Shown: one piece after another, positions 692 to 21,047 of the stretch
How positions within the stretch are numbered: position 1 is the stretch's first letter
Layout of the letters: each line of letters opens with the position of its first letter
DNA from: a virus
Lineage: Duplodnaviria; Caudoviricetes
IMG/VR virus record: IMGVR_UViG_3300033412_000058
Location: 1-26,303 of that record
DNA: 26,303 nucleotides
Direction: 5' to 3' (one strand)
The notes under the pieces: model-generated
What the model saw: the letters and a program-made list of their open reading frames with translations, nothing else
Told to the model about the DNA's origin: nothing
Database searches by the model: none
Made by a program: the position numbers and the translations under genes

Positions 692-2167
692 GTGGACAAG
701 GCGGCTAGAGACCGGCTCGCACGGCACCTCGCGACCCTCCCGCTAGAGCAGCGCAAGGTCGTCCTCGACCAGATTCAGGGCTACGTCCCGCCCGTGCGGC
801 GGACGAAGTACATGCCCCCGACGCTCTCCTTCAAGCAGGAGGCGTTCCTCCGCGCGCCCAACCTGGAGATTCTCTACGGCGGGGCTGCCGGTGGCGGCAA
901 GACTGCCGGGATGCTCGCGGCTGCGCTCCAGTACGCGGACCAGCCGAACTACGATGCGCTCATCATCCGCAGGACCCACGCAGAGCTGGAGATGCCCGGG
1001 GCCACGATCTCCCTGGCTAAGCGCTGGCTGGGGGGCAGCGACGCCGCATGGGTCAAGGGGAACCATTATGAGTTCCCCCTGGGGGCCACGCTCAACTTCG
1101 GCTACCTCTCCCGCGACGACGACAAGTGGCAGTACCAGTCTGCGAACTACAACTTCATCGGCATCGACGAGGCGGCTGAGTTCCCGAACGAGGACACCTA
1201 CAAGTTCCTGTTCTCGCGGCTCCGGCGCGGGGCCGAGATCAAGATTCCCTCGCGCATGCGCCTGGGGGCGAACCCGATCGGGCCTGGGGCCAACTGGCTC
1301 AAGCGCAGGTTCATCACCTGCCCGTTCGACCCGGCGCTCGCCGAGGAACCCTGTGAGGTCTGCCAGCACTACCACTGGAAGGACCACTGCGACGCCGAGA
1401 AGTGCGACTGCCCCTACAACCCCAACTCCGAGCCCCGCCTCTACATCCCGGCGCGCCTTGAGGACAACCCGTTCCTCGACAAGATCGCCTACAAGCGCTC
1501 GCTCTCGAACCTCGACCCGTACACGCGCGTCGCGCTTGAGAGCGGCGACTGGAACGCGAAGCCCCCGGGCAAGATGTTCCGCCGCGAGTGGTTCATCCCC
1601 GTGCCGGGCGGCCCAGCCGACCCGTTCACCGCACGCGTGCGTTTCTGGGACCTGGCCGCGACCGCCGAGGACAAGAACAAGAACCCGAGCTATACCTGCG
1701 GCGCGAAGCTCAGCTACCACAACGGGCTCTATACGGTGGAGCACGTGGTGCGAAAGCGCGCCACCCCGGGCGACGTGAAGGATCTGGTCAAGACGACCGC
1801 ATACGCCGACGGCCCGAGCGTGGCGATCTGGATCGAGCAGGAGCCCGGGTCGTCCGGCATCGCCGTGATCGCGGACTACATCAGGTTCCTGCCGCAGTTC
1901 GTCGTGCGCCCGTTCAAGGCGACGGGCGAGAAGACCGTGCGGGCCGCGCCGTTCGCCTCCCAGTGCGAGGCCAAGAATGTGCGCATGGTGACGGCACCCT
2001 GGAACGAGCCCTACCTTGAGGAGATGGAGCAGTTCCCGAGCGGCACGGTGAAGAACGACCAGGTGGACGCGAGCTCGGGCGCGTACAACGTGCTAGTCAA
2101 CTACCCGGACTTCTCCGCGATCGCCAGCTACGGCGAGCGGACGAAGCCAGACTGGAACTTCGGATGA
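692..2167 (+). CDS. terL: terminase large subunit (Terminase_6-type ATPase plus RNase H-like nuclease)
   Basis: Walker A YGGAAGGGKT, Walker B FIGIDEA, coupling motif GANP, nuclease acidic motifs RFWDLA, IWIEQE and NDQVDA; lies upstream of the portal. Confidence 0.95.
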   Translation: MDKAARDRLARHLATLPLEQRKVVLDQIQGYVPPVRRTKYMPPTLSFKQEAFLRAPNLEILYGGAAGGGKTAGMLAAALQYADQPNYDALIIRRTHAELEMPGATISLAKRWLGGSDAAWVKGNHYEFPLGATLNFGYLSRDDDKWQYQSANYNFIGIDEAAEFPNEDTYKFLFSRLRRGAEIKIPSRMRLGANPIGPGANWLKRRFITCPFDPALAEEPCEVCQHYHWKDHCDAEKCDCPYNPNSEPRLYIPARLEDNPFLDKIAYKRSLSNLDPYTRVALESGDWNAKPPGKMFRREWFIPVPGGPADPFTARVRFWDLAATAEDKNKNPSYTCGAKLSYHNGLYTVEHVVRKRATPGDVKDLVKTTAYADGPSVAIWIEQEPGSSGIAVIADYIRFLPQFVVRPFKATGEKTVRAAPFASQCEAKNVRMVTAPWNEPYLEEMEQFPSGTVKNDQVDASSGAYNVLVNYPDFSAIASYGERTKPDWNFG

Positions 2168-2821: not shown

Positions 2822-5800
2822 ATGGCAACGCGCCCCCAGTCAAAGCGTAAGTTCAAGTCCACCATCCCGCCGAAGCGCCCCAGCAGCAGGGGCGGCGGCA
2901 ACACGTCCGGCTTTCCGCTCGGCTCCGAAGTCAGCACCGTCAGCTCGTACCTCTACCTGACGCGCCCGTACCCCTACAATCCCGACGACATCATCGGGAA
3001 GAAGGGGGTCAGGAAGTACACCGAGATGGCGCGCGACGAGCAGATCAAGGCGGCGATGCTCGCCAAGCAGTTCTCCGTCATCGCGCCCGGTTGGGAGGTC
3101 GTCCCGTCCGCCCACGAGAAGCAGTCCGAGAAGGACGACGCCGAGGACGTGGCCGACTTCGTCGAGCAGAACTTCAACGACATGGCCGGCAGCTTCGACA
3201 CCAAGCTGATCGAGATGCTGAGCGCGCTCATCTACGGGTACTCGGTCGCGGAGAAGGTCTTCTGGCTGATCGACTACGGCGACTACGAGGGCCGGGTCGG
3301 GCTGAAGGAGCTGAAGTTCCGCAACCCCGAGGGGTTCGACTTCGACATGGACCCGTACGGGAACCTGTACCCCGACGGCGTCCTCCAGGCGCAGCGCCGG
3401 CTCCCCGCCGAGAAGTTCGTCATCTACAGCTACCGCAAGAAGTTCTCGAACTACTACGGCGACAGCGACCTGCGCGAGTGCTACAGGCCGTGGTGGGCCA
3501 AGGACAACGTGATCAAGTTCATGATGATCACGCTGGAGCGCTACGGCGAGCCGACCTGGGTGTTCAACGCCTCGGGCGGCCTCAGCGGCGAGACGAAGTC
3601 GCTGCTTGAGAACTTCATGCGGGACATCCAGAGCAAGTCCGGGCTGATCCTGCCCGACACGATCCAAGCCGACCCCAAGAGCCCCGCCACCGACGCCGGG
3701 CGCACCTACATCCCCGTCCTGGAGTACCTCGACGGCCTGATCAGGGGCGCGCTCGGCCTGCCTTCGCTGATCGGCGCGTCCACCAGCGAGAAGGAGGTGG
3801 GCAGCCTCGCGCGGTCGCAGACGCAGTTCGACCTGTGGGTGACTCTCATGGAGTACATCCGCCACGACGTGGAGGCGAACCTCAACGAGCAGGTGATCAA
3901 GCCTCTCGTCGACATGAACTTCGAGGTGCTCGACGGGCTCTATCCGGTGTTCCGCTTCAAGGCGCTCACCGAGGACCAGAAGACCAAGCAGTTCGAGGAG
4001 TACCTGAAGGGGCTCAGCGGCAAGGCCCTCACCAAGACGCGCGAGGACGAGAACTTCTTCCGCGAGCGCCTGGAGATGCCGCTCCTGTCCGAGGACTACC
4101 CGGTCGCGGGCGAGGTCACCCCCGAGATGCAGCAGCAGCAGGACCAGATGGCGAAGGAGCAGCACGACGCCATGATCGCCACGATGAACGCGAAGGCGGA
4201 GAACGGCGGCGCCGGGCTGCCGGGCGGCGGCGGCTTCCCGCCGAAGGCCGCGAAAAAGGACAACGCGGAGGCGGAGGCCGTAGTCGGCGATGTCGTCAGG
4301 CCGCAGCAGCAGGAGCTCAAGTTCGAGACCGAGAAGGAGCGCCACGCCCGCGAGTACCGCGAGTGGAAGGACAAGCAGCTCCTCCAGGACCACCTGATCA
4401 ACCACGAGCGCAACCGCGACCTGACCGGCCCGGACGCGCGCCACGTCTCGACCTACATGCACGGCACGGTCTCCATGCAGTACCTCGACGTGCCGGGCGT
4501 GGACGAGATGCACCGGGCGATGGGCATGGAGCCCGACCTCGACACCGAGCCGAAGAAGTACGCGCAGGCGCGCGCACGGCTGTTCAACAAGCAGCCGAAG
4601 CGCCGGGTGCCGCTCTCCGACATCCGCTTCACGCAGACCCACGTGCACAGCGGGCGCGTCGAGGAGATGTCGCACGACCCCGAGGCGCTGAACAAGCACG
4701 TGCAACTCCTCAAGGGCGGCGGCTCGCACTACCTCATGGACGGCCACCACAGGGTCGTCGCCCGCCACCTCGCCGGCAAGAAGTTCGTGCAGGCGCAGGT
4801 GTTCGAGCCGAAGAAGAAGTTCTGGGACGAGGACGCCCACCCGAGGCACCCGTCCGGGTCCGACCGTGGGGGAGAGTTCGCACCGAAGGGCGAAGGGGAC
4901 CGCGCTGGCGAGGCCAAGGGACGCAAGGAGGGCTCCGGCAGCATAGCTGACCTGATCAGCCGGCCGACCCCCGAGAATCCGAATATTGACGCAAATAAAG
5001 ACGGAATTACCGATGCGGCCAGGGTCGGAGTGCCCGGACTCCAGACTCCGCCTCCGCCCCCAGATATTCCACGACTCCCCAACCTGACACATGAGGAGCG
5101 GGCCGTGGAGAGCAACTTCGCGGAGGCCTACGAGGCGAACCCGTCCGACATGGTGTCCGCATACCTCAATCAAGTGACGACTTCCGGCGCTCCGAACACC
5201 TTCTCCACCGACGACGCGAAGATGCTCTCGCCCGACTACGCGCGGAGCAACGACAACAAGGCCGTCTACAACGTGGCCGTGCATCAGACGGCCAACGCAG
5301 TCGCGAAGAACGCCTTCGCGCGCTACCTCGACGAGGTGGTGTCGAAGCTGCCGAAGGACCAGCAGACGATCCTCGTCACAGCCGGAGGCGTGGCCGCAGG
5401 CAAGGGCTATGCGCTCGGGAACATCGACTCGGCGAAGTCCGTGGCGTCGAAGGTCGGCGCTGTGTGGGACACGGCCGGCGAGCAGAACTCGACCGAGCTG
5501 CCCTGGGTCATGGACGAGGCGGCGAAGCGCGGCATGCGCGTTGTCTACGCCTACGTCGACGCCGACCCGATCACGACCTTCGAGCGGGTGGTCTCGCGCG
5601 CGCAGAAGACGGGCCGCATGGTCGACGCCGACCTCTACGCAGACAGCTACGCGATCGGCGCGCGCAACTTCCAGACCTTCGCCTCCAAGAACTCCGGCAA
5701 GGCGGACTTCCTGTACCTCTCGAACCGCACGGCCAAGCCCTCGCTGCTCGACAGCTTCCCGAAGGACGCTCTCGTTGACCGTGAGACCGTCTATCGCGCG

Positions 5801-5887
5801 GCGAAGAAGTATGTGTCAGCAAAGGCAGACAGCCTGAGCCCCGCCGTGCTCGCGGGTGCGACCATCGGAGAGCGCCTGTGGCACTGA
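2822..5887 (+). CDS. portal protein (Mu gp29/DUF935-like, about aa 40-430) fused to C-terminal ParB/Srx-like and zeta-toxin-like P-loop kinase domains
   Basis: Portal motifs LSALIYGYSVAEKVF, YGDSDLRECYRPWWAK, LERYGEP, GSLARSQ and QVIKPLVDMNF; ParB-like YLMDGHHRVVA at 4730-4762; Walker A AGGVAAGKG at 5381-5407; ERVVSRAQKTGRMV. Confidence 0.9.
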   Translation: MATRPQSKRKFKSTIPPKRPSSRGGGNTSGFPLGSEVSTVSSYLYLTRPYPYNPDDIIGKKGVRKYTEMARDEQIKAAMLAKQFSVIAPGWEVVPSAHEKQSEKDDAEDVADFVEQNFNDMAGSFDTKLIEMLSALIYGYSVAEKVFWLIDYGDYEGRVGLKELKFRNPEGFDFDMDPYGNLYPDGVLQAQRRLPAEKFVIYSYRKKFSNYYGDSDLRECYRPWWAKDNVIKFMMITLERYGEPTWVFNASGGLSGETKSLLENFMRDIQSKSGLILPDTIQADPKSPATDAGRTYIPVLEYLDGLIRGALGLPSLIGASTSEKEVGSLARSQTQFDLWVTLMEYIRHDVEANLNEQVIKPLVDMNFEVLDGLYPVFRFKALTEDQKTKQFEEYLKGLSGKALTKTREDENFFRERLEMPLLSEDYPVAGEVTPEMQQQQDQMAKEQHDAMIATMNAKAENGGAGLPGGGGFPPKAAKKDNAEAEAVVGDVVRPQQQELKFETEKERHAREYREWKDKQLLQDHLINHERNRDLTGPDARHVSTYMHGTVSMQYLDVPGVDEMHRAMGMEPDLDTEPKKYAQARARLFNKQPKRRVPLSDIRFTQTHVHSGRVEEMSHDPEALNKHVQLLKGGGSHYLMDGHHRVVARHLAGKKFVQAQVFEPKKKFWDEDAHPRHPSGSDRGGEFAPKGEGDRAGEAKGRKEGSGSIADLISRPTPENPNIDANKDGITDAARVGVPGLQTPPPPPDIPRLPNLTHEERAVESNFAEAYEANPSDMVSAYLNQVTTSGAPNTFSTDDAKMLSPDYARSNDNKAVYNVAVHQTANAVAKNAFARYLDEVVSKLPKDQQTILVTAGGVAAGKGYALGNIDSAKSVASKVGAVWDTAGEQNSTELPWVMDEAAKRGMRVVYAYVDADPITTFERVVSRAQKTGRMVDADLYADSYAIGARNFQTFASKNSGKADFLYLSNRTAKPSLLDSFPKDALVDRETVYRAAKKYVSAKADSLSPAVLAGATIGERLWH

Positions 5888-6471
5888 GCCTCGTCGACGA
5901 ACTCAAGCATGGGATGCTCCAGAACCTCACCGAGGCGATGGCGGACCCGGACGCGTGGGACGAGAAGGAGGCTGAGCGCCAAGAGGGCTTCCACCCGGTC
6001 GACCTCGACGAAGTAAAAAAAAACAGCTTCCCTGATCACAAGGGCAGGCCGGGACTGAGGGGCGGCAGCCTGCCGCGAGGCGAGTCCGACCAGGAGGTGG
6101 ACGAGCTGAAGGAGAAGGCCGTCAAGTCGGGGGGCTTCACCTACAACCCCGTGCGCTGGAAGGACCGCGAGCCGCCGAAGAACGGCTTCGCGCTGAGCGT
6201 GCGCAAGGACACCGAGAAGGTCGTGGACCTCAGCGCCAAGCGCGACGAGCTGCGCAAGCAGCTGAAGCAGTACATCCACGAGCACCGCGCCGACATCAAG
6301 GCGCAGGGCAACTTCCTCGGCGGCTGGATCGACAACGGCAAGCTCTACCTCGACATCTCGAAGGTCGTGGGCGAGAGGCAGAAGGCGATCGAGCTGGCGC
6401 AGAAGGCGGACCAGCTGGCGATCTTCGACCTGGGCAAGGGCGAGACGATCGACGTGAAGAAGGCGGCGTGA
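5878..6471 (+). CDS. effector-array protein: acidic N-terminal peptide, HKGRPGLRGGSLP tag and an uncharacterised alpha/beta domain
   Basis: Start overlaps the portal stop; domain pattern GGFTY...GFALS...FLGGWIDNGKLYLDIS...A...A...DQLAIFDL. Confidence 0.8.
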   Translation: MALSLVDELKHGMLQNLTEAMADPDAWDEKEAERQEGFHPVDLDEVKKNSFPDHKGRPGLRGGSLPRGESDQEVDELKEKAVKSGGFTYNPVRWKDREPPKNGFALSVRKDTEKVVDLSAKRDELRKQLKQYIHEHRADIKAQGNFLGGWIDNGKLYLDISKVVGERQKAIELAQKADQLAIFDLGKGETIDVKKAA

Positions 6472-9400
6472 TGCCAGAGGCGAAGTACGTACTGATCGAC
6501 ATCCAGGAGGGCGACGACGAGGACGCCGCGATCGAGCGGCTGCTCGACGAGCTGGTCGGTCCAGAGCCGGCGCCAGACATCCGCGAGAATGCCGAGTGGG
6601 ACGAGTCGAAGCACCCGAGGAAGCCCAAGGGCGGGGAGTCGGGCGGCGAGTTCGCTCCGAGCGGCGACTCCGGCGCGGGCAAGCCGAAGACCAAGGCGGA
6701 GCTGCGCAGGGCGAAGCGCGAAGAGGACAAGTTCTGGAACTCCCACTACGTTCACTCCGACATACAAGGCATAGAGAAGGGGACGAGCGAGGAGAACCTG
6801 AAGTCGATCTTGAAGAACGGCTTCAGGGGCGGCCCGCACGTGAACCTGCTACCGGCGTTCGGCTTTCGCGGTCCGCGCGACAGGGCCGACATCATGAGCT
6901 TCAACTACTGGCCCAAGAAGGGGTCGATAGTCTACCTCGTGCCGGAGTCCGACATCGTCGTCGTGCACGGCACCGCCAGGGTCAAGACAGGCTGGAAGCC
7001 CGGACCCAATCAGGTGTTCCGCATAGACGACCCGGACAAGTCGCTGTATGACTACTACCGCGAGGCCTCCGGCAAGAAGTATGAGTGGCAGGAAGAGGCG
7101 CACCCGCGTCATCCTTCCGGCAGCGACAGAGGCGGAGAGTTCGCTCCCAAAGGGAGTGACAGTGCGGCTAACGGCAAAGACTCCGAGAAGAAGACATCAG
7201 GCACGGTCGAGGGCATCGTCGACCCGTCAGAGCTGATCGTCACGAGCGGCTCCGACGCAGGACCGGGCTTCTCCCCTGAACAGGTCAGGGAACGCGACCG
7301 CGTCATCAACTCGATAGACGCGGTCGCCCGGAACTGGCTCCACAACAAGACGGGCGGCGACAGGGAGCCCACGCGCGGCGAGCTGGCGGAGATGATGAAG
7401 TTCGTGGGCACGAAGTACGGCGACCAAGTGGACAAGATCATCGCCGACTTCTCCGACTACACGAAGTACCCGGACCGGCCGGCGATCCACCTCGTCGTCG
7501 GCGAGAAGAACGTCCCCGACGTGTGGCTGCTCGGTTGGCGCGAGGAGCAGAAGGGCCTTGAGGCCACCCCGATCCACGACCACGGCGCGAGCGAGGCCGG
7601 CATCTACGTGCACAAGGGCTCGGTCAACGAGCGCATCTTCGCGATCGACAAGAAGGACTTCGGCAAGGACACGCTCGCCTTCCACGAGGTCGACCGTGGG
7701 CTGAACGAGGGGTCGGGCATCACGATCAACGCGCCCTACCTGCACGACATCGGCGCCTCCCACGGCGAGAAGCTCTCGGTCACGGTCCACGCCTACTACC
7801 CGCCGCTGAACGACATGGGCTTCTACGAGGTGAAGGGCAAGAAGCTCGTGAAGTCGGGCTCCTGGAAGGAAGACCCGAACGTCATGAAGGCCAAGGGCTT
7901 CCGCGACCACACTTTCCCCTGCTACCACTACCACAGGCGCAAGTACCACGAGGAGACCCCGTGGGGCGTGCACGCCTACGAGTGGGTCGGCTCAAAAAAA
8001 AAGTCCGTAAAAAAGTTTGAGTGGAACGAAGAGGACCACCCTCGTCAGCCCGGAGGGTCTGAGAAGGGCGGCGAGTTTGCGCCGAAGGGCGGCGGGCTCG
8101 CTGAGCAGAGGACGGCCGCGATCGCGGATGTCTCCAAGCTCGCCGACACGATCATCAACAAGGAAGTCGAGGTCGATGTGCTCGAGGAGGACAAGTTCCA
8201 CGTTCCTGAGAGCTGGGATGATGTGTCAGAGAGTGATCAGGACGCCGTGAAAGAGCAGTGGATCGACGACAACAAGCAGGAATACTACGAGTCCGCGGTC
8301 GAGAATTGGTGGGAGACCGAGGCGATCGAGAGCGCACGCAGCTACGCCGTGTGGCAGGAGAAGGACTGGGCCAAGGAGAAACTGTCGGAGCTGCTCGAAG
8401 AGCACGGCGTCGACCTGGAGAAGAGCGGGCTGCTGGACGAGAAGGGCGAGCTCAAGGAGGAGGTACTAGGCGAGCTGTGGGACAAGGACGCGGACAACGA
8501 GTACGCGTTTCGGTACAACGGCCAGAGCGGCAAGTGGAACGACGACAAGGGCCTCTCCTACGACAGCCGGAAGTACGAGCTAGTCGACAACTCGGGGCTC
8601 GTCAGCCCGGAAGCGCTCGGCGAGATGGTCGACTCCGAGGGCAACAACCTGTTCGTCGGGTCCGAGGCGTTCCCTGGCCAGCTCGGCCTGGCAGGCGTGC
8701 CCAAGATGCCGTCGTCGTCCGAAACTGCCAGCGACCTGCTTAACGACTTCGAGAGGGCCGTGCTTGAGAAGACCGACGACCCGCAGAGCTTCATGGAGGC
8801 GCCCGACGCGGAGTACTTCCAGGACAGCATCAACGACTACATCGGCGAATCGTTCGATGAGAAAGACGACAGCGAGAAGTTCGAGCTGGCCAAAGATAAG
8901 TACGGCAGCGACTGGGACGACAACGAGCGCGGCGAGACCGTCACGGCCACGCTCACGCCTCCGTCCGAGTGGAAGCTCCTGAGCGACGGGCGCGACTACG
9001 AGCGCACCAAGGCGATCGGCAACGAGCTGAGCAAGGAGCGGTTCCTGCAAGTGCTCGCAGATCGCGGGATCAAGAGCAATTCAGACCGCGCGGCGCAAGC
9101 AATCAAAGATGTCTGGTCGAGCTGGACTGGCGACTCAGGTGGGCGGCTCGCCTACGCGATGCAGGCGGCGGCAGCCGACGAGCTGGGTGGGAACTTCTAC
9201 AAGAGCCGCGACAAAGACAAGGCGGATGCGGTCAATGACGCGAACGAACTCTTTCCGGGCGGATACGACGGTCTCAAAGCCTACGTGCGCGCGCAGTGGG
9301 AAGTGAACCAGTACCTGTTCGACAAAGCCAAGGTCGACCACCTCGACCTGTACCGGGCGGTCATGGTGCCGACGAAGAACCTGGAGGGCCACACGCAGAA

Positions 9401-9791
9401 GATCGTCATGGACTCGACTTACGGCGGCATGCCGTACTACACAGCCGTGCCCACGATGTTCATCCATCAGAACGGCGCCGCGTCGTTCACCGCCAAGGAA
9501 AGCGTCGCCAACAACTGGAACGGCGTCGGCTACCGACCCGACGAGCCTTCGGAGCGCGTGGTGATCCGCGCGCGCGTGCCCTCGACGGCGGTCCTCTCTC
9601 TGCCGGTGTTTGGCAAGAACCTGGCGAGCGAGGAGGAGGTCGTCGTCACTGGGCTCCCGTGGAAGTCCTGGGACGCGTGGCGAGGCCGCGCGCCGAGCAA
9701 CGAGGAGTTCAACATGCTCCACCCGCGCGGTCCAGACGGAAGATTCGTTGACAAGCCGGGCGGCTCCGACGCAGAGAAGAGGGCGGCATGA
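6468..9791 (+). CDS. 1107-aa polyvalent effector protein: ART-like domain, cysteine-dioxygenase-like cupin, acidic helical region and R-S-E ADP-ribosyltransferase, separated by HPR tags
   Basis: H...GTSEENLKSILKNGF; WLLGW...TPIHDHG...YLH...VHAYYPPL; LYRAV...SFT...EEEVVV. GTGA and ATGA coupling at the two ends. Confidence 0.85.
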   Translation: MMPEAKYVLIDIQEGDDEDAAIERLLDELVGPEPAPDIRENAEWDESKHPRKPKGGESGGEFAPSGDSGAGKPKTKAELRRAKREEDKFWNSHYVHSDIQGIEKGTSEENLKSILKNGFRGGPHVNLLPAFGFRGPRDRADIMSFNYWPKKGSIVYLVPESDIVVVHGTARVKTGWKPGPNQVFRIDDPDKSLYDYYREASGKKYEWQEEAHPRHPSGSDRGGEFAPKGSDSAANGKDSEKKTSGTVEGIVDPSELIVTSGSDAGPGFSPEQVRERDRVINSIDAVARNWLHNKTGGDREPTRGELAEMMKFVGTKYGDQVDKIIADFSDYTKYPDRPAIHLVVGEKNVPDVWLLGWREEQKGLEATPIHDHGASEAGIYVHKGSVNERIFAIDKKDFGKDTLAFHEVDRGLNEGSGITINAPYLHDIGASHGEKLSVTVHAYYPPLNDMGFYEVKGKKLVKSGSWKEDPNVMKAKGFRDHTFPCYHYHRRKYHEETPWGVHAYEWVGSKKKSVKKFEWNEEDHPRQPGGSEKGGEFAPKGGGLAEQRTAAIADVSKLADTIINKEVEVDVLEEDKFHVPESWDDVSESDQDAVKEQWIDDNKQEYYESAVENWWETEAIESARSYAVWQEKDWAKEKLSELLEEHGVDLEKSGLLDEKGELKEEVLGELWDKDADNEYAFRYNGQSGKWNDDKGLSYDSRKYELVDNSGLVSPEALGEMVDSEGNNLFVGSEAFPGQLGLAGVPKMPSSSETASDLLNDFERAVLEKTDDPQSFMEAPDAEYFQDSINDYIGESFDEKDDSEKFELAKDKYGSDWDDNERGETVTATLTPPSEWKLLSDGRDYERTKAIGNELSKERFLQVLADRGIKSNSDRAAQAIKDVWSSWTGDSGGRLAYAMQAAAADELGGNFYKSRDKDKADAVNDANELFPGGYDGLKAYVRAQWEVNQYLFDKAKVDHLDLYRAVMVPTKNLEGHTQKIVMDSTYGGMPYYTAVPTMFIHQNGAASFTAKESVANNWNGVGYRPDEPSERVVIRARVPSTAVLSLPVFGKNLASEEEVVVTGLPWKSWDAWRGRAPSNEEFNMLHPRGPDGRFVDKPGGSDAEKRAA

Positions 9792-12310
9792 AGAAAAAAG
9801 AGGCGAGCGGACAGTTCGGCGGAAGGGTGCCCGATGGCGCGTTCGTGATCCCGCCGCTCGACCTGCCGCTGGAGCGTCCGCACTGGCTCTCGGGCGGCGC
9901 CGGCCAGAAGGCGCAGATCAAGGCGCTCATCAAGCGCAAGCGAGCTGAGAAGAAACTCTGGGAGGAGTCGCAGCATCCGCGCCACCCTGCGGGGTCGGAC
10001 ACCGGAGGCGAGTTCGCGCCGGCAGGCGGGGGCGCCGAGTCGGCCACAAAGGAGAAGGCCAAGAAGAAGGCCGTTATCAAGGGCGACGTGTCCGAGGCGG
10101 CCGACGCGCTGGGCGTGGTGCCCGACGACATCGCGGAGGGCTTCGGCCTCGACAGCGACGAGTTCCACACCGAGATCACAGCCAGCGAGACGAGGGGCGA
10201 GGGCTCCGACCCGGACGAGAGCTCGATCCGCGCCTCCTTGGCCGAGAGCTTCAACGAGACTTTCGACCGCCAAGAGGAGTTGGACCGCTTCATCGAGAAG
10301 GAGCGCGAGAGCTACGACGACACCGACGCACGCGAGTACGTCGAGGGGCCTCTCCGCAAGGACATCGCCAAGAATAAGGAGCTACGAGACAGCGTGCTGA
10401 AGGAGGCCGAGCTGGACGACTCGGCGAGCGACGCGGACAAGCAGAAGGCGATCGACGAGTACGTGCAGCGAGAGACCGAGGACCAGCTCAACGAGTACAT
10501 CGACGAAGAGATCAACCGGATCGTGGATGACGACTTCGAGAGCCACGTCGACAGGATGCGCGACCAGTACATCGAGGACAACTACAACGACGAGGTCGAC
10601 GCCTGGCGCGAGGCGAACCCGAGCAGCGTGGACCAGATCACGATCGAGGGCGACGTGAGGACCGCCGACAACCACAGGGTCGCCTCGTTCACACGCGAGA
10701 TTCACCCCGAGGACGGCTACGCCTACCACGCGAGCTTCTTCATCGACAAGGAGTACCAGAACAAGAAGATCGCCCGCGACCTGCTCGACCGGAGCGTCCA
10801 CATGTACGACAAGATCGGGCTGAATGAGGTCAAAGTCTTCGCGAACGGCGACGTCGGGAAGTACGCCTGGGCGATGTACGGCTTCGACTTCGACGACCAG
10901 TACGCGCTGGAGAACTTCCGCTCGGCCCTGCTCGCCCGCGTCGCCGAGACGGACGCGTACAAGAAGATGACGAAGGAGCAGCAGGTTCAGGAGCTCGCGA
11001 AGGTCAGGGCGGTCAAGCACTCGTGGGACGTGGCCGCGTACCGGGTCGGCGGCGAGAAGGTCGGCAAGGACCTCATGCTGCACGGCACGTCGTGGAACGG
11101 GACGCTGAAACTCAAGGGCGAGGGCCGAAAGATATTCGACGCGTACACCGCAGCCTCCAAGCGCCCGCCCGAGGACAAGAGCCAGCTCAAGCTCCCGTTC
11201 GCGCAGAACGACGGCATGGCCGACCAGGACAGCGAGGCGTTCCACTACGACATCCTCGGCATCGAGGACGAGATGCACGCGATCATCAACCGCCGCGACC
11301 ACGCGCACGCCTACGAGTGGAACGAGTCGGAGCACCCCCGCGACACTGAGATGGACGACGCCGAGGGGAAGAAGCTCCTCGACGAGGCCATCAGGGAGCT
11401 GGACGGCGAGCACGACCACGCGCACCACTACCGCGCCAAGACGGGCCCGGAGCGCCGGGTCGACTTCGCGCAGGCGAAGCAGGCGCTCGACGCGAGCGAG
11501 TCGAACGTCAAGGAGCGGCTCACGGGGCAGCTGAAGGGCGTGCAGGACCAGCTCCTCGCCTGGGTGCGCGTCACGCCGCTCAACTCCGACGTCGTGCGGC
11601 AGCTCGCCGTGGCGACCCCGGCCGACACGCAGCGCACGCTCCAGGACATGTTCGAGGGCGCCTGGGGCGAGGGCAAGGACGCCGGCATCTCCGAGGTGCC
11701 GCGCGCGGTGCGCGCGCAGCCGCGCGTGCAGGACGTGCGGACCTTCGCGCTCCTCAAGTACGACGCGGGCTTCGAGCCCGAGGAGGCGATGACCGCCTTC
11801 GAGAACAGGGCGTGGATGATCAAGGACGTGATCGACGCGAACATCCAGGCGCAGGTGCGCCTTGAGCTGTTCGAGCACCTGAAGGGCGGACGCACGCTGG
11901 GCGACACAATCGACCGGCTCCGCGAGGTGTTCGAGCCGTGGGTCGGCGACCCCGAGAAGGTCGGGTCCGACGACCTGCTGCGCGCGCCGCGCCTTGAGAA
12001 CATCGTGAGGACCGAGAGCACCTGGGCCTACAACCAGGGCCGGCTCGCGGTGGGCGACGCGGCCGAGGACTACGTGATCGGCTACCAGTTCAGCGCGATC
12101 ATCGACGAGCGCACGACCGAGACCTGCCAGACGGCGGACGGTCTCGTGCTGCGCAAGGACGACTCGCGCACGATCCGGCTCACGCCTCCGCTCCACTTCC
12201 AGTGCCGCTCCGTGCTAGTCTTCGTCACGCAGGACGACCAGCCCGTCGAGTGGTCGGACGACCGCGAGATCGACAAGGCGCTGGCGCTCGTGCCGAAGGG
12301 GTTCAAGTGA
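9788..12310 (+). CDS. MuF/SPP1 gp7-like head morphogenesis protein with an N-terminal extension (HPR tag, acidic region, GNAT acetyltransferase)
   Basis: C-terminal MuF motifs RLENIVRTESTWAYNQGR, YQFSAIIDERTTETC and PPLHFQCRS; GNAT-like FFIDKEYQNKKIARDL...GKYAWAMYGFDF. Confidence 0.9.
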   Translation: MKKKEASGQFGGRVPDGAFVIPPLDLPLERPHWLSGGAGQKAQIKALIKRKRAEKKLWEESQHPRHPAGSDTGGEFAPAGGGAESATKEKAKKKAVIKGDVSEAADALGVVPDDIAEGFGLDSDEFHTEITASETRGEGSDPDESSIRASLAESFNETFDRQEELDRFIEKERESYDDTDAREYVEGPLRKDIAKNKELRDSVLKEAELDDSASDADKQKAIDEYVQRETEDQLNEYIDEEINRIVDDDFESHVDRMRDQYIEDNYNDEVDAWREANPSSVDQITIEGDVRTADNHRVASFTREIHPEDGYAYHASFFIDKEYQNKKIARDLLDRSVHMYDKIGLNEVKVFANGDVGKYAWAMYGFDFDDQYALENFRSALLARVAETDAYKKMTKEQQVQELAKVRAVKHSWDVAAYRVGGEKVGKDLMLHGTSWNGTLKLKGEGRKIFDAYTAASKRPPEDKSQLKLPFAQNDGMADQDSEAFHYDILGIEDEMHAIINRRDHAHAYEWNESEHPRDTEMDDAEGKKLLDEAIRELDGEHDHAHHYRAKTGPERRVDFAQAKQALDASESNVKERLTGQLKGVQDQLLAWVRVTPLNSDVVRQLAVATPADTQRTLQDMFEGAWGEGKDAGISEVPRAVRAQPRVQDVRTFALLKYDAGFEPEEAMTAFENRAWMIKDVIDANIQAQVRLELFEHLKGGRTLGDTIDRLREVFEPWVGDPEKVGSDDLLRAPRLENIVRTESTWAYNQGRLAVGDAAEDYVIGYQFSAIIDERTTETCQTADGLVLRKDDSRTIRLTPPLHFQCRSVLVFVTQDDQPVEWSDDREIDKALALVPKGFK

Positions 12311-12567
12311 GCCTGGAGGATGCGATCAAGGTCTCCCCGGGCGAGACCGTCGAGGAGCAGACTATGCAGGTAGGCGTCGCGATCGGCGGAGAGAACGTGC
12401 GCGGTATGCGGGCGACGGCCAACTGCCCGTTCCACGAGGACGCGGACCAGCACTCGCTGGTAGTGGACATCAGGGGAGGCGCGTTTCACTGCACCGGGTG
12501 CGGCGCCCAGGGAAACGTGGTCACGACTGTGGCAATGATCGAGAGGACAGACGAGGAGGAGAGTTGA
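12307..12567 (+). CDS. standalone CHC2 (primase-type) zinc-finger protein
   Basis: GTGA overlap with the MuF stop; CPFHED...SLVV...FHCTGCGAQGNV. Confidence 0.8.
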   Translation: MSLEDAIKVSPGETVEEQTMQVGVAIGGENVRGMRATANCPFHEDADQHSLVVDIRGGAFHCTGCGAQGNVVTTVAMIERTDEEES

Positions 12568-13840: not shown

Positions 13841-13906
13841 CGCAGCGAAAAGCCTGAAGACCGAGTATCCGGCAACGGAGAAAAGTTTTCAGGCTTTTTT
13901 GCTGTG
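13841..13906 (+). promoter_or_regulatory. long leader hairpin sequestering the protease start codon
   Basis: CGCAGCGAAAAGCCTGAAGAC pairs with GTTTTCAGGCTTTTTTGCTGTG; apical TCCG-GCAA-CGGA hairpin flanked by AGTA/GAA. Confidence 0.7.
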
Positions 13907-15460
13907 GACCCGAAGAACCAAGACACCCTACCGACCGTGACCCTCGACAACGTCGAGGTGTTCTCCGTCGGGACCTGGAACGGGGACCCGTACTCCGAGC
14001 ACGACCTCGACCAGATGGTCTCCGCGTTCCACGAGCTGCGCTCCAGCTGGGAGCCGGCCGCGAAAGCGGGGCACGAGGACGGGCAGGAGAAGGACGGCAT
14101 GATGAGCCGCCTCTTCGGCGTTCCGGCGCTCGGCTACGTCGACCAGCTCGCCCGCAAGGGCGGCAAGCTGATCGCGCGCTTCAAGGACATGCCGCGCCGC
14201 TTCGCCGGGCTCGTCAAGGCGGGCACCTACAAGAAAATCTCCTCCGAGGTCTACTGGAACTACAAGAACCCCGCCACCGGCAAGGTCTACCCGCGCGTGC
14301 TGAAGGCTGTCGCCTTCTTGGGTGCGGACGTTCCGGCAGTCACCAACCTCAAGGAGATCGAGGCGCTGTTCTCCGTCAAGGACAACGGCGCGCTGGTGGC
14401 CTACGACGACGCGAAGAACGAGTTCCGGGCCTACGAGCAGGAGTACTGCGGCGAGGCGTACGTCGCCCCGATGCAGACCCGCAAGCTCGACAAGGCCACG
14501 GTCAAGTACAGCGAGAGCGGCAAGGCGGACGACACGTGCGGCAAGTGCCGCTACTTCCAGGGCGACCAGTGCTCCGTCGTCGAGGGGACGGTGGACTACA
14601 ACGGCACCTGCGACTTGCAGAAGCCGTACCCCTCGAAGATGGCCTCGATCGTCCGCGTGAAGAGCCACAGCATCGTCCGTCAGGGCGACAAGTTCTGCGT
14701 GGTCTCGAAGGACGACCCGAGCAAGGTCCTGGGCTGCCACGACACCGAAGAGGATGCCCAGAAGCAGCTCGCCGCTGTCGAGGCAGGCAAGGCGGACAAC
14801 GGCAACAACGACAACGACGGCGACGAGATGAAACCGCCTTTCAAAAAGAACAATTCGGAGGGTCACATGAACGAAGATCAGATCAACGAGCTCATGAAAA
14901 AGCGCGAGGACGAACTCAAGCTCCAGATGTTCAAGGAGTTCGAGGATCGCATCCACAAGGCGCGCGAAGAGGGCAAGGAAGAGGCCAACAAGGAGGCCGA
15001 GGCCCTACGCGAGGACATCCGCAAGCTCCAGCTTGAGAAGCGCTCCGAGCGCATCGAGGCGTGGATCAAGAGCATGAAGGAGCAGGGCAAGCTGCTCCCG
15101 GCCGAGGAGTCCAAGGTGCGGAGCCTCCGCCAGTGGATTCCCGACGAGGGGACCGACCTGAAGTTCTTCTCCGTCAAGGAGGGGAAGACCCAGGAGTTCA
15201 CTGCCGGGCCGGCTGAGATTTTCGAGTCGCTCTTCTCGAACCGTCCGAGCATCTTCCGCACGCTGAGCGCGCACGAGGACAGCGAAGAGGACCAGGGCTC
15301 CGTCCTTCAGGACGCGGGCGCCGAGGTCGACCGCCGCGCGAAGCAGTTCGCCGAGAAGCGGGCGAAGGACGGCGTGAAGGTCGCCTACATGGAGGCCGTC
15401 AAGCACGTCCTGGCGGGCAACCCCGGTCTTGCCGAGCGCTACCGCCAGCAGCGGCAGTAA
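13904..15460 (+). CDS. prohead protease (Mu gpI-like) fused to scaffold, with two inserted Cys-containing mini-domains
   Basis: VEVFSVGTWNG, KAGH (candidate catalytic His), PALGYV, YKKISSE (candidate catalytic Ser), LKAVAFLGADVPAV; charged coiled-coil C-terminus; lies upstream of the cement and MCP genes. Confidence 0.88.
   Translation: MDPKNQDTLPTVTLDNVEVFSVGTWNGDPYSEHDLDQMVSAFHELRSSWEPAAKAGHEDGQEKDGMMSRLFGVPALGYVDQLARKGGKLIARFKDMPRRFAGLVKAGTYKKISSEVYWNYKNPATGKVYPRVLKAVAFLGADVPAVTNLKEIEALFSVKDNGALVAYDDAKNEFRAYEQEYCGEAYVAPMQTRKLDKATVKYSESGKADDTCGKCRYFQGDQCSVVEGTVDYNGTCDLQKPYPSKMASIVRVKSHSIVRQGDKFCVVSKDDPSKVLGCHDTEEDAQKQLAAVEAGKADNGNNDNDGDEMKPPFKKNNSEGHMNEDQINELMKKREDELKLQMFKEFEDRIHKAREEGKEEANKEAEALREDIRKLQLEKRSERIEAWIKSMKEQGKLLPAEESKVRSLRQWIPDEGTDLKFFSVKEGKTQEFTAGPAEIFESLFSNRPSIFRTLSAHEDSEEDQGSVLQDAGAEVDRRAKQFAEKRAKDGVKVAYMEAVKHVLAGNPGLAERYRQQRQ
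14867..15460 (+). CDS. scaffolding protein from an internal in-frame start
   Basis: GGAGG at 14857-14861, 5 nt before in-frame ATG 14867, preceded by an A/U-rich stretch; same arrangement as Mu I/Z and lambda C/Nu3. Confidence 0.65.
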   Translation: MNEDQINELMKKREDELKLQMFKEFEDRIHKAREEGKEEANKEAEALREDIRKLQLEKRSERIEAWIKSMKEQGKLLPAEESKVRSLRQWIPDEGTDLKFFSVKEGKTQEFTAGPAEIFESLFSNRPSIFRTLSAHEDSEEDQGSVLQDAGAEVDRRAKQFAEKRAKDGVKVAYMEAVKHVLAGNPGLAERYRQQRQ

Positions 15461-15879: not shown

Positions 15880-16860
15880 ATGGACGGAACTGTAAACCCT
15901 GGTATCGTAAAACGCTTCGCCGGAGCCACGGGCCGGGACTTGCACATCGACGTGCCCCTCACGGGTCTCACGATCGCGTACGAGCCGCAGGGCCTGATCG
16001 CGCCGATGATCTACCCGGTCGTCAGCGTCGACAAGGAGACCGGCGTCTACTACACCTGGCCCAAAGCGGAGAGCATGCGCCTGTACGACGCCTTCCGCGC
16101 GCGCGGGCGTGAGGCGAACCGCATCACGTTCGACGTCAGCTCGGACGGGTACGCTGTCAAGAACTACAGCTTGGCGCTGGACATCCCGCTCGAAGACATC
16201 GCGAACGCAGACGCGGCGCTCAACATCCAGGCTTCGGCCGCAGAGCGCGTCACCGACGGTCTGAATCTGGCCTGGGAGGACCGTCTCGCGACGACCCTCA
16301 CCACGACCACGAACATGACCTCCTCGACGGCGCTGGCCAACCCGTGGTCCGACTTCACGAACAGCTCGCCGATCGACGACCTGTACACGGCCCGCAACGC
16401 GATCCGCAAGCAGACCGGCTACACGCCGAACGTCTGGATTTACTCCGACGTGGCGTGGACCAACATCTCCCGGCACCCCGACGTGATCGAGTTCATCCGG
16501 GGCAAGGGCGACGACACCGGAGGCGGCCCCGTGAGCGAGCAGCAGCTCGCCAACGCCCTCGGGGGCGGGCGCGTGCTTATCGGTAAGGGCCTGAAGAACA
16601 TCGCGGCAGAGGGCCAGGCCCCCGTCTTCACCGACGTGTGGTCGACCGCCTGCGTGGTGCTCTATGTCGCGCCCAACCCGGGCATGATGCAGCCGTCGCA
16701 CGGCTACACCTTCCGCTGGACCCCGACCGGCCTCCCCGGCCCGCTGGCGGTCGAGCGCTACCAGAACACGCGCCCCAAGACGGAGTCCGTCGAGGTGCAC
16801 ATGTTCCAGGACGAGAAGGTCACCGGCGCGGACCTCGGCTATCTGATCGTGGGGTGCTAA
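15880..16860 (+). CDS. major capsid protein (HK97 fold)
   Basis: 326 aa; HIDVPLTGLTIAY, IAPMIYPVVSVDKE, PWSDFTNSSPIDD, GYTPN, PSHGYTF and DEKVTGADLGYLI; AAGGAG RBS; consistent synteny. Confidence 0.9.
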   Translation: MDGTVNPGIVKRFAGATGRDLHIDVPLTGLTIAYEPQGLIAPMIYPVVSVDKETGVYYTWPKAESMRLYDAFRARGREANRITFDVSSDGYAVKNYSLALDIPLEDIANADAALNIQASAAERVTDGLNLAWEDRLATTLTTTTNMTSSTALANPWSDFTNSSPIDDLYTARNAIRKQTGYTPNVWIYSDVAWTNISRHPDVIEFIRGKGDDTGGGPVSEQQLANALGGGRVLIGKGLKNIAAEGQAPVFTDVWSTACVVLYVAPNPGMMQPSHGYTFRWTPTGLPGPLAVERYQNTRPKTESVEVHMFQDEKVTGADLGYLIVGC

Positions 16861-17869: not shown

Positions 17870-17945
17870 GGCGAGGGCGGAGATTTAATCTTCAACTCCC
17901 TCCCGAGGTGTGTTACACACACAGCGAGGAGGGATTGGCGCTTTG

Positions 17946-20900: not shown

Positions 20901-21047
20901 ATCGAGATCGGGCGCCAGGGGAGCCCGATGGGCCCGCAGAAGTCGGTGATGCGCTTCCGCGCCGCCGACGTGAACGAGGCCGCAGAGATGCTCAAGACCC
21001 GCATGGGCCAGCTCGCCGTGCCGCACTCCGGGAGGTACGTGGCGTGA
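17946..21047 (+). CDS. three-domain enzyme: GT4-like glycosyltransferase, SAM-dependent methyltransferase and GT2-like glycosyltransferase
   Basis: GT-B motifs LGGSET, LWQHD, TRNGVD, RPERGL, YPSMFEEVSCITAME; MTase motifs LLDFGCAHG, VGVDTS, FDCVVAMEVLEHL; GT-A motifs VCVIAHNSE, VVDNGPSTDRT, WIDCDE, GIVHE. Start likely TTG 17943 or ATG 17946 after GAGGAGG (the track gives 17910). Confidence 0.9.
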   Translation: MRTYELDIVMYVSGLPFDGDTIPSGQSLGGSETAAVQLAEELGRQGHRVTVFCNCEGVKEIGGVLYSPIGWAGRQFPKGFYDYIRSVPVDVCIVQRIPSMFQFETRSKVNLLWQHDLATKTGPSIFQPYCWNIDRILVLSQFMKKQYQEVHGGSDDLYHVTRNGVDPELLASVPETPRDRFRLTYTARPERGLDILLRGVFPKILEREPRAKLYVSRYTDPNTMEFYGQLEAEMKRFGDRVEFLGNLGKKALYDNYRRSRLYLYPSMFEEVSCITAMEVAASGCVFLGPWRAALPETLGGCAPLLTDEGVLGRPGDAAETGLKPPSEKFVAAVADHAVRLMRDDAYWEDWQRKSLVRAQGLSWKGVAEDWMQLVHETIARKSGDARRMVRHFLFNSDVVAARKYADEAKSPQLQRSVDNYVDRYVPFMSRRIPEEKRPTIQQFYEQRSGGDRANWQTAMYAETEVRTQQLINFIRPHVESGDIKTLLDFGCAHGGYTKALTDAFPNLKVVGVDTSPSLVRCANELKASGQCKNPQNMRFVVADENTSIPKLNDLEFGDDGIETYQKPFDCVVAMEVLEHLPDAEAAATKLEGLCREGGWTIFTVPSGHRERDELVSKGVPPVHVRSFDLHDLRDLFQRKPEYSVTSFSDLTEAEMDRTFSCWFMVCYRANHWPLGEIDYQRKFFLQGPRETLAVCVIAHNSEDVMHRCLRSVIRYADQVIVVDNGPSTDRTAEVAMEYTEDVRAGTSPFWCYTHLVVHPYDGIDPNVCEMAGFETPRNESVEGVWTDWIMWIDCDEQLLDPANLPKYLRSNCYVGYAVEQHHISVDAVSAMKRDVPVRLYRNVPEMRFYGIVHEHAELGINRGVGPNVMVATDVKLHHDGYLVESIRRNRFRRNLRLLQCDRRKYPERLLGWFLYEIRDCQHMARYEQEQNGGFVNEKVQQLCHTTIRAYREKFMKDNMMMSEDALNYYSNALAMLGMGVDVVADIEIGRQGSPMGPQKSVMRFRAADVNEAAEMLKTRMGQLAVPHSGRYVA

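What the first reader, a model, noticed from the sequence alone, without database searches (positions are those of the whole stretch)
4601..12310. Tag-delimited multi-effector array built into the portal-MuF locus
Seen: four coupled ORFs between the portal core and the MuF core carry at least seven enzyme-like modules (ParB/Srx, zeta-like kinase, unknown alpha/beta, ART-like, CDO-like cupin, R-S-E ART, GNAT). Most are preceded by the same ~23-aa HPR tag. Known: MuF proteins can carry toxin domains, usually one and C-terminal. Here cargo sits on the portal C-terminus, on the MuF N-terminus and in free ORFs. Inference: this is a modular system that loads a cocktail of host-takeover or anti-defence enzymes into the prohead for delivery with the DNA.
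Basis: partly seen in the sequence, partly recalled or inferred. Interest (0 to 1): 0.92.

Follow-up and report, generated by a model that had tools for sequence, protein, structure and literature searches.

The report
Cut-and-tag cargo code in phage heads
A soil phage strings seven enzyme-like modules between two head-building genes, most behind a short swappable peptide tag, and across many phages the residue just before that tag changes with the phage's own head protease family, so the modules are likely cut free inside the head and would be injected with the DNA.

Summary
Observation confirmed. Four overlapping ORFs (2822-12310) carry seven modules. Five follow a full HPR tag, one follows a different tag, and the ParB-like module has none. 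Close relatives keep portal and MuF but swap cargo at these boundaries. The tag is widespread (620 clusters) in polyvalent proteins, including Acb1 carriers.

(2) The residue just before the tag tracks the protease family in 34 of 38 independent phage groups: Phe/Tyr with Mu-I-like, Asp with DUF2213, Lys with XkdF, Lys/Arg with S78 (shuffle mean 17.5). The same residue usually follows the protease domain itself.

Best reading: a cut site + tag + enzyme grammar for head cargo. Cutting, packaging and ejection are inferred, not shown. In this window only 3 of 5 full tags have the Phe/Tyr site. Zeta-like, cupin, R-S-E ART and GNAT calls are supported; ParB and the first ART-like call are weak; ORF B is a weak SAM-lyase lead. 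This scan noted a Lys-site + HPR version before, on another genome (e1-5967420). Multi-enzyme portal/MuF fusions are already published.

The parts
692..2167 (+). terminase large subunit (context)
   Evidence: Pfam Terminase_6C/6N, PHROG 979
2822..5887 (+). ORF A: Mu-type portal with two C-terminal cargo modules
   Evidence: Portal_Mu aa 65-417, E 2e-49
4322..4807 (+). ParB/Srx-like module, no tag; starts at a Phe that is kept in three close relatives
   Evidence: homologues P0004-P0006; ParBc_2 E 0.006 on P0005 only; weak call
4823..4888 (+). HPR tag 1, Phe directly before it
   Evidence: 41.0 bits; upstream residues
4937..5884 (+). zeta-toxin-like P-loop kinase module; segment order looks circularly permuted; Walker A ends in Gly instead of Ser/Thr
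   Evidence: E 1e-6 for the C-terminal part; the Asp/His segment aligns before the P-loop at sub-significant score; Pfam Zeta_toxin E 0.026; relative P0111 E 1e-6
5878..6471 (+). ORF B: leader, second-type tag (about 6028-6081), conserved alpha/beta module (6094-6468) of unknown function; weak SAM-lyase lead
   Evidence: PHROG 17808; AF2 pLDDT 87; 23 viral structural matches; no clear PDB match
6468..9791 (+). ORF C: free three-module protein with no portal or MuF domain
6597..6662 (+). HPR tag 2, no Phe/Tyr in the 4 residues before it
   Evidence: 36.8 bits
6708..7082 (+). module C1, possible PARP/KptA-like ART, lead only
   Evidence: Atlas scores 0.87; hhalign P 38%; no homologue found
7086..7151 (+). 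HPR tag 3, Tyr two residues before it
   Evidence: 37.0 bits
7188..7907 (+). cysteine-dioxygenase-like cupin module
   Evidence: CDO_I E 1e-9, above cut-off; PDB 8qfl E 7e-6
8022..8087 (+). HPR tag 4, Phe two residues before it
   Evidence: 39.7 bits
8106..9713 (+). acidic spacer (8106-8957) and R-S-E-type ADP-ribosyltransferase module (8958-9713)
   Evidence: hhalign P 94%, E 1e-7 against 54 exoenzyme-type ART domains with the Arg, Ser and Glu motif columns aligned; seed-only DRAT-like profile E 6e-6; AF2 model low confidence
9720..9746 (+). short tag-like copy at the C-terminus of C, no cargo after it
   Evidence: 4.6 bits, within chance
9788..12310 (+). ORF D: leader, tag, acidic spacer, GNAT-like module, truncated tag, MuF
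9959..10024 (+). HPR tag 5, Leu (not Phe/Tyr) before it
   Evidence: 43.9 bits
10613..11173 (+). GNAT-like acetyltransferase module
   Evidence: Pfam E 1e-4, below cut-off; 15 homologous domains in session loci and proteins; PDB 5f46 E 0.0012
11318..11341 (+). truncated tag with Tyr two residues before it, ahead of the MuF part
   Evidence: 12.2 bits; E 3e-4 in own-genome search
11423..12310 (+). MuF minor head protein core
   Evidence: Phage_Mu_F aa 689-810, E 2e-13; homology to fused portal-MuF relatives from about aa 506-536
13904..15460 (+). Mu-I-like prohead protease plus scaffold, the predicted processing enzyme
   Evidence: PHROG 976 and 3894 head maturation protease; weak Mu-like_Pro; Phe at the end of the protease domain
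15880..16860 (+). major capsid protein (context)
   Evidence: PHROG 1005

Best explanation
The locus is an array of swappable modules between a phage portal and MuF, most headed by a short tag, and the phage's own prohead protease likely cuts just before the tags so that separate enzymes would be left inside the head and ejected with the DNA. Shown: ORF layout, tags, exchange of cargo at tag boundaries, interchangeability of tag types, protein-level conservation of the tag, and covariation of the residue before the tag with the protease family. Inferred steps: (1) portal- and MuF-fused cargo enters the prohead with its anchor (about 0.85); (2) the Mu-I-like protease at 13904 cuts at Phe/Tyr sites (about 0.75); (3) the tag, which stays on the cargo side of the cut, is the signal that brings anchor-less ORFs B and C into the prohead and holds released modules until ejection (about 0.4; partner unknown, probably something common to unrelated capsids); (4) the freed enzymes act early in infection on host proteins, nucleotides or defence signals (about 0.65).
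For: Swapping: portals 80% and 67% identical to A leave its homology at aa 498 and go on into tag + unrelated cargo; P0004 leaves at aa 661, one step before tag 1, and runs into MuF; P0005 shares the tag and diverges after aa 701; P0006 and L013 carry tag + ART-like cargo inside MuF. The ORF B module follows a tag in 8 of 12 homologues, with at least four tag types (read by eye). Tags 1 and 3 share 20 of 22 residues, but 12 of 19 degenerate identical-residue codons differ. Covariation: 34 of 38 groups at 70% protease identity (Mu-I-like 9/10, DUF2213 12/12, XkdF-type 6/8, S78 7/7, S77 0/1), shuffle mean 17.5, 0 of 100000; 20 of 24 at 55%, 1 of 100000. With the class picked freely per family: 0 and 1 of 20000. 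The same residue follows the protease domain itself: DUF2213 12/12, S78 6/6 visible, XkdF-like 3/3, Mu-I-like 8/10 (by eye). In Mu-portal relatives Phe/Tyr lies within 3 residues before 36 of 40 tags of four types. Within proteins, 235 of 356 tag pairs share the class against 76 expected. The Lys/Arg class fits HK97's K103/S104 cut (PMC10275583). Tagged proteins hold MuF (20 of 52), Acb1 (9), ART-PolyVal (8), exoenzyme-type ART (7), LPD1 (6), InPase (5).
Against: No virion or cleavage data. In the window only 3 of 5 full tags have Phe/Tyr in the 4 preceding residues, and B's tag lacks it in the 3 before. Phe/Tyr site density in the window's scaffold (0.83 per 100 aa) is no higher than in other proteins (0.3-0.8). 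Four groups break the rule (L162, L175, L281, L197) and two count at exactly half (L039, L157). 79 of 159 tagged locus-strands had no protease found and were left out of the test. Only 64 of 104 distinct tagged loci had MuF or a protease found within the fetched DNA. Related phages share both protease and upstream residue by descent, so groups are not fully independent and there are only four informative families. Tags also occur in head modules with a scaffold and no protease found (L189, L202). The tag is slightly acidic (mean -1.1 over 258 tags), which argues against a simple DNA tether.
Confidence: 0.62

Rival explanations
1. The cut sites are real, but the tag only helps processing: it would be a protease docking or spacer peptide, or a Pro/Gly-rich cap that stops further digestion of the freed enzyme, and targeting lies in the leaders that are cut off, as in the T4 capsid targeting sequence.
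For: Tags hug the predicted site. In T4 the targeting peptide is the removed propeptide (PMC9026906). B, C and D each have a 45-60 aa leader before their first tag. The four protease families are believed to share one fold (recalled).
Against: Tags stand within 8 residues of the first Met in L140, L202, L305 and L313, where no protease was found (few cases). Leaders of B and C found no homologues among session sequences, whereas tags are shared across unrelated phages.
Confidence: 0.2
2. The array is a set of uncut multi-domain fusions or lysogen fitness genes, and the tags would be linkers that serve as recombination points.
For: Breakpoints do fall at tags. Some MuF-fused enzymes act in lysogens (Bxa, PMC11699363). 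The host and lifestyle are unknown; the contig is about 27% complete.
Against: Tag DNA is only 41-48 of 66 bases identical while the protein is conserved. This reading does not explain covariation with protease family. No small ORFs lie between the four overlapping cargo ORFs, unlike toxin-immunity pairs.
Confidence: 0.1
3. The modules are packaged and cut, but would act inside or on the particle (DNA handling, capsid modification, protection) and are not delivered to the host.
For: ParB-like, topoisomerase IB and acidic spacer modules occur among the cargo. The cupin has no obvious host target.
Against: Acb1, ART, kinase and InPase domains need cytoplasmic substrates (established biochemistry). 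T4 Alt and internal proteins are cut and ejected.
Confidence: 0.08

Closest known systems
Phage-type polyvalent proteins (Iyer et al. 2017, PMC5512222; Iyer et al. 2022, PMC9503650)
   Same: Disparate enzyme domains (ART, GNAT, ParB, zeta-like kinase, 2H, InPase, LPDs) fused to MuF or portal in the head module, predicted to be injected with DNA; the tagged proteins carry their Pfam families.
   Different: They propose a built-in zincin metallopeptidase as the processing enzyme; none was detected in A-D. 'HPR' has 0 hits in both main texts and 'prohead' occurs only in a reference title of the 2017 paper. Their external supplementary files were not seen.
T4 internal proteins and Alt with the capsid targeting sequence and gp21 (PMC9026906); SPN3US gp245 substrates (PMC10052503)
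   Same: Head-protease cleavage at a short phage-specific motif; varied cargo loaded into the prohead and ejected.
   Different: There the signal is the removed N-terminal propeptide, one per protein. Here the conserved peptide lies after the predicted cut, recurs inside polyproteins, comes in several types and is shared across at least four protease families.
MuF polymorphic toxins (Jamet et al. 2017, PMC5576092; Bxa, PMC11699363)
   Same: MuF gene next to the portal gene, fused to a variable enzyme domain.
   Different: Those are short or have a C-terminal extension with adjacent immunity genes. Here MuF has N-terminal cargo and no C-terminal extension, and no small gene lies between the cargo ORFs.
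Phage SAM lyases (Svi3-3, T3 SAMase; PMC7877911, PMC12255297), for ORF B only
   Same: Ferredoxin-like strand/helix order in the model; invariant Gly82, Trp84, Asp93, Ser95, Gln113 in the order of Svi3-3 Gly56, Tyr58, Glu69, Ser71, Gln104.
   Different: Asp for the key Glu, no 10-12 residue T-loop in the model, and structural scores only Z 3.5 (rmsd 5.3, 87 aligned) and Z 2.8 (rmsd 3.9, 70 aligned), within background.

Membership tests
Phage-type polyvalent proteins | two or more domains of disparate predicted activity in one polypeptide | tested here: met
   C: ART-like lead + cupin + ART; A: portal + ParB-like + zeta-like; D: GNAT + MuF
Phage-type polyvalent proteins | encoded among head genes or fused to MuF/portal | tested here: met
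   terminase, portal, MuF, protease, capsid
Phage-type polyvalent proteins | mosaic domain content among orthologues | tested here: met
Phage-type polyvalent proteins | zincin metallopeptidase hub domain (common, not universal) | tested here: inconclusive
   no Pfam hit in A-D; divergent forms could be missed
Phage-type polyvalent proteins | packaged and injected with DNA | not testable with these tools
   no virion data
MuF polymorphic toxins | toxin domain C-terminal to MuF | tested here: not met
   MuF domain ends 30 aa before the stop of D
MuF polymorphic toxins | adjacent immunity gene | tested here: inconclusive
   none between A-D; the ORF after D is a CHC2 zinc finger; function untested
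T4-type CTS cargo | cargo preceded by the phage's own protease motif | tested here: inconclusive
   covariation 34 of 38 groups but 3 of 5 in the window; no cleavage data
T4-type CTS cargo | conserved signal is the removed N-terminal propeptide | tested here: not met
   the conserved peptide follows the predicted site
R-S-E ADP-ribosyltransferase (module 8958-9713) | Arg, Ser and Glu motifs in order, aligned to known R-S-E ARTs | tested here: met
R-S-E ADP-ribosyltransferase (module 8958-9713) | ART fold | tested here: inconclusive
   model pLDDT under 50 over the catalytic half; searches blank
Zeta-toxin-like kinase (module 4937-5884) | P-loop with zeta-type C-terminal half | tested here: met
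   E 1e-6 against session zeta domains, reversed control E 810; Walker A atypical
Cysteine dioxygenase-like cupin (module 7188-7907) | Pfam CDO_I above cut-off, three His aligned to a solved enzyme | tested here: met
ParB/Srx (module 4322-4807) | profile match to a ParB family | tested here: inconclusive
   only E 0.006 on relative P0005; not folded
SAM lyase (ORF B) | ferredoxin-like PII-type fold | tested here: inconclusive
   element order fits; Z 3.5 and 2.8; DUF3293 E 0.036, SAM hydrolase E 0.23
SAM lyase (ORF B) | conserved Gly, catalytic Glu, Gln | tested here: inconclusive
   Gly and Gln counterparts invariant, Asp in place of Glu; matched by order, not by a significant alignment

The most novel reading that the evidence does not exclude
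Tailed phages share a portable cargo code: own-protease cut site + one of several interchangeable 15-25 aa tags + any enzyme. The tag alone loads and retains a protein in unrelated capsid types and gets it ejected. Tags would then mark hundreds of unannotated virion-delivered anti-defence proteins (ORF B possibly a new SAM-lyase-like family), and the residues before them would read out the specificity of uncharacterised head proteases such as DUF2213 (Asp) and Mu-I-like (Phe/Tyr).
Probability: 0.35. Interest if true: 0.92.

Novelty: new variant of a known kind. Interest (0 to 1): 0.74.

Why it matters
Polyvalent phage proteins have lacked an account of how they are cut into units and how anchor-less ones reach the head. 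This gives a testable rule with residue-level predictions, including cleavage specificities for two protease families whose sites I found no paper on. The tag is also a search handle: what follows it is enriched in known anti-defence and host-modifying domains, and 7 of 52 scanned proteins had no Pfam family at all. If the tag alone directs loading, it would be a CTS-like tool for laboratory phages beyond T4.

Tried and rejected
Tags as DNA repeats: rejected, synonymous sites are diverged. Tag as a polycationic DNA tether: not supported, net charge -1.1. Enrichment of Phe/Tyr sites in the window's scaffold: null. AF2 of the ART module: low confidence, fold searches blank and meaningless. ORF B: no PDB match by sequence, Foldseek or VIA; a trimer-with-SAM job gave no answer, no evidence either way. 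C1: no homologue among 30-607 aa proteins. Sequence searches of PDB with the ART profile and the kinase found nothing meaningful. The first ART profile test against the expanded DRAT-like set was circular (it held four loci of the query alignment) and was redone with seeds only. The window's long tag found no isolated phage; a short tag from L142 found 12 records, best in portal-region genes. No RNA holder listed. No credible tag-to-tag deletions in four soil runs; all joints had sides under 30 letters. Host: only distant portal matches (28-48%) in mixed MAGs, not usable. Searches for a paper on the tag or on this grammar found none; motif strings search poorly and subscription journals are missing. 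A paper on Mu portal cleavage by gpI was not found, so that precedent is recalled only. Motif-level coordinates inside modules were not computed; part boundaries come from residue numbers in earlier outputs and may be off by a few codons.

Full report
Setting. The window is a 26.3-kb fragment of a soil phage, about 27% complete. Gene order is terminase, portal (ORF A), ORF B, ORF C, MuF (ORF D), three small genes, prohead protease/scaffold, a small head gene and the capsid protein. The host is unknown.

Observation. The four ORFs and their overlaps are real and are repeated in other assemblies. Five full tags score 36.8-43.9 bits on a profile built from 343 tags of other phages; 300 shuffles reach at most 14.0. 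A truncated copy (11318) and a short copy (9720) are visible but within chance. Of seven modules, five follow a full HPR tag, ORF B's follows another tag type, and the ParB-like module has none.

Module identities. Supported: cysteine-dioxygenase-like cupin; R-S-E ART at 8958-9713, by non-circular profile comparison, although its AF2 model was too poor to test the fold; GNAT-like; zeta-like kinase, apparently permuted and with an atypical Walker A. Weak: ParB-like and C1 as an ART. ORF B folds confidently (pLDDT 87) and has 23 structural matches among viral models, some inside longer proteins named for an XkdF protease or a zeta domain. It has no clear solved relative. Its invariant residues follow the order of SAM-lyase active-site residues, with Asp for Glu; I put that at about 0.3.

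Exchange at boundaries. Of 39 non-self portal relatives of 561-1787 aa, 21 are portal-MuF fusions (the length limit favours fusions), so the window looks like an expanded, split form of that layout. P0002 and P0003 follow A to aa 498 and then carry a tag and unrelated cargo. P0004 follows to aa 661 and runs into MuF with no tag. P0005 follows through tag 1 to aa 701 and then diverges. P0006 and L013 insert tag + ART-like cargo within MuF. L029, L035, L013 and L055 hold multi-ORF tagged arrays with different cargo, including Acb1. Among 104 distinct tagged loci, 47 have more than one tag, 30 have tags in two or more ORFs, and 191 of 201 tags are followed by at least 100 residues.

The tag. A 32-column profile finds 620 clusters at E 0.001 or better, with up to eight copies in a protein; two exact DNA patterns give estimates of about 330 and 180 stored viral stretches. 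I scanned 52 of the 148 non-self top hits, chosen among the longest: MuF 20, Acb1 9, ART-PolyVal 8, exoenzyme-type ART 7, LPD1 6, InPase 5, none 7. Tags 1 and 3 share 20 of 22 residues but differ at 12 of 19 degenerate codons, so selection acts on the peptide. At least three other short His-, Cys- or Gly/Pro-rich peptides take the same position, and the ORF B module appears behind at least four types in 8 of 12 homologues (by eye).

The residue before the tag. Within a protein it tends to be constant; between proteins it falls into classes (235 of 356 pairs concordant, 76 expected; labels were mine and copies in one protein may share descent). I seeded protease profiles from Pfam- or PHROG-named proteins and, for some seeds, from proteins judged by eye. 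A protease was found for 80 of 159 tagged locus-strands; the other 79 were dropped. Collapsed at 70% identity, 34 of 38 groups match: Phe/Tyr with Mu-I-like, Asp with DUF2213, Lys with XkdF-type, Lys/Arg with S78. The window is one of the 38. Because I chose the classes after seeing the data, I repeated the test letting each family take its best of ten classes: 0 of 20000 shuffles at 70% and 1 of 20000 at 55% reached the observed value. The same residue sits at the end of the protease domain in most members, where self-cleavage from the scaffold would be expected. HK97's known site is K103/S104, which fits S78. In Mu-portal relatives 36 of 40 tags of four types have Phe/Tyr within three residues. 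Against: four groups fail, two pass at half, the window itself gives 3 of 5, site density in its scaffold is not raised, and four families are few independent events. Two further classes (Ala/Gly-rich and Glu) had no protease assigned.

Mechanism. Most likely, A and D bring cargo in with portal and MuF; the protease at 13904 cuts at Phe/Tyr sites; each enzyme is left with the tag at or near its new N-terminus; and the set is ejected. B and C have no anchor, so something else must target them, and the tag is the only feature they share with cargo elsewhere. In a few loci with no protease found, the tag sits right after the first Met. That fits a need for an N-terminal position, but 4 of the 11 such tags are in loci that do have a protease. 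The tag is shared across unrelated portals and capsids, which argues for a common partner; it is not basic, so plain DNA binding is not favoured. This step is the weakest.

Comparison with what is known. It works like polyvalent proteins in content and like T4 head cargo in processing. It meets the testable criteria for a polyvalent locus and fails the C-terminal criterion of MuF polymorphic toxins. What I saw of each paper: PMC5512222 abstract, outline and passages; passages only of PMC9503650, PMC11699363, PMC10052503, PMC2628397, PMC7877911, PMC12255297, PMC5576092, PMC10275583 and PMC9026906. No supplements were read; those of PMC5512222 could hold the tag under another name. Searches found no description of the tag or grammar. 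Recalled, from no call: processing of the Mu portal by gpI, the shared fold of these proteases, the sliding-clamp motif, and the papain-like, JAB-like and nuclease labels for cargo in P0002, P0003 and P0005.

Earlier scan note. e1-5967420, on another genome, proposed Leu-x-Lys sites before HPR tags. I had reached the covariation before reading it. It agrees with the Lys class and is not independent support.

Verdict. Real, not an artefact, and richer than first read. The cocktail idea is an extension of published work. The cut-site + interchangeable-tag grammar across four protease families is the new part. New variant of a known kind; interest 0.74.

Noticed in passing
window 11183-11200 (end of GNAT module) and 8679-8696: Sliding-clamp-binding-like peptides (label recalled). 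Such motifs are enriched in tagged proteins: 24 in 13 of 147, against a shuffle mean of 4.3 and maximum of 8.
   Followed up: partly
window 8106-8957 and 10058-10567: Long acidic spacers precede both the ART and the GNAT; the first recurs next to GNAT or ART modules in L198, L201, L264, L276, L303, L304. Possibly DNA-mimic or targeting domains.
   Followed up: partly
ends of ORF B (6471) and ORF C (9791): Both end in two alanines after basic residues, as do several B homologues. Could be a ClpXP-type degradation signal (recalled) or a by-product of overlapping ribosome-binding and start signals.
   Followed up: no
window about 14570-14815, inside the protease/scaffold ORF: Two small inserts between protease and scaffold: a Cys-rich stretch and a PHROG 3684 match.
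   Followed up: no
window 17910-21047: 1045-aa fusion of GT4 glycosyltransferase, methyltransferase and GT2 glycosyltransferase after the capsid genes; similar genes lie near heads in L149, L160, L196, L209. Possibly capsid or DNA modification.
   Followed up: no
window 12307-12567: Stand-alone CHC2 (primase-type) zinc finger coupled to the MuF stop codon.
   Followed up: no
L162, L175: XkdF-family proteases whose tags are preceded by Asp or Asn instead of Lys; could be specificity switches or cargo cut by another enzyme.
   Followed up: partly
L170, L151, L199; L201, L204, L188; many of P0041-P0189: Two further upstream classes (Ala/Gly-rich and Glu) for which no protease was assigned.
   Followed up: no
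P0011, P0019, P0021, P0033, P0042, P0050, L035, L055: Inteins or Hint domains inserted in portal or MuF domains of relatives.
   Followed up: no
L029, L035, L038, L057: A fifth recurring short peptide (Trp-Thr type) near tagged cargo that does not follow the Phe/Tyr rule.
   Followed up: no
L145:9932-10486: A tagged LPD3 protein inserted among neck genes, away from the portal-MuF interval.
   Followed up: no
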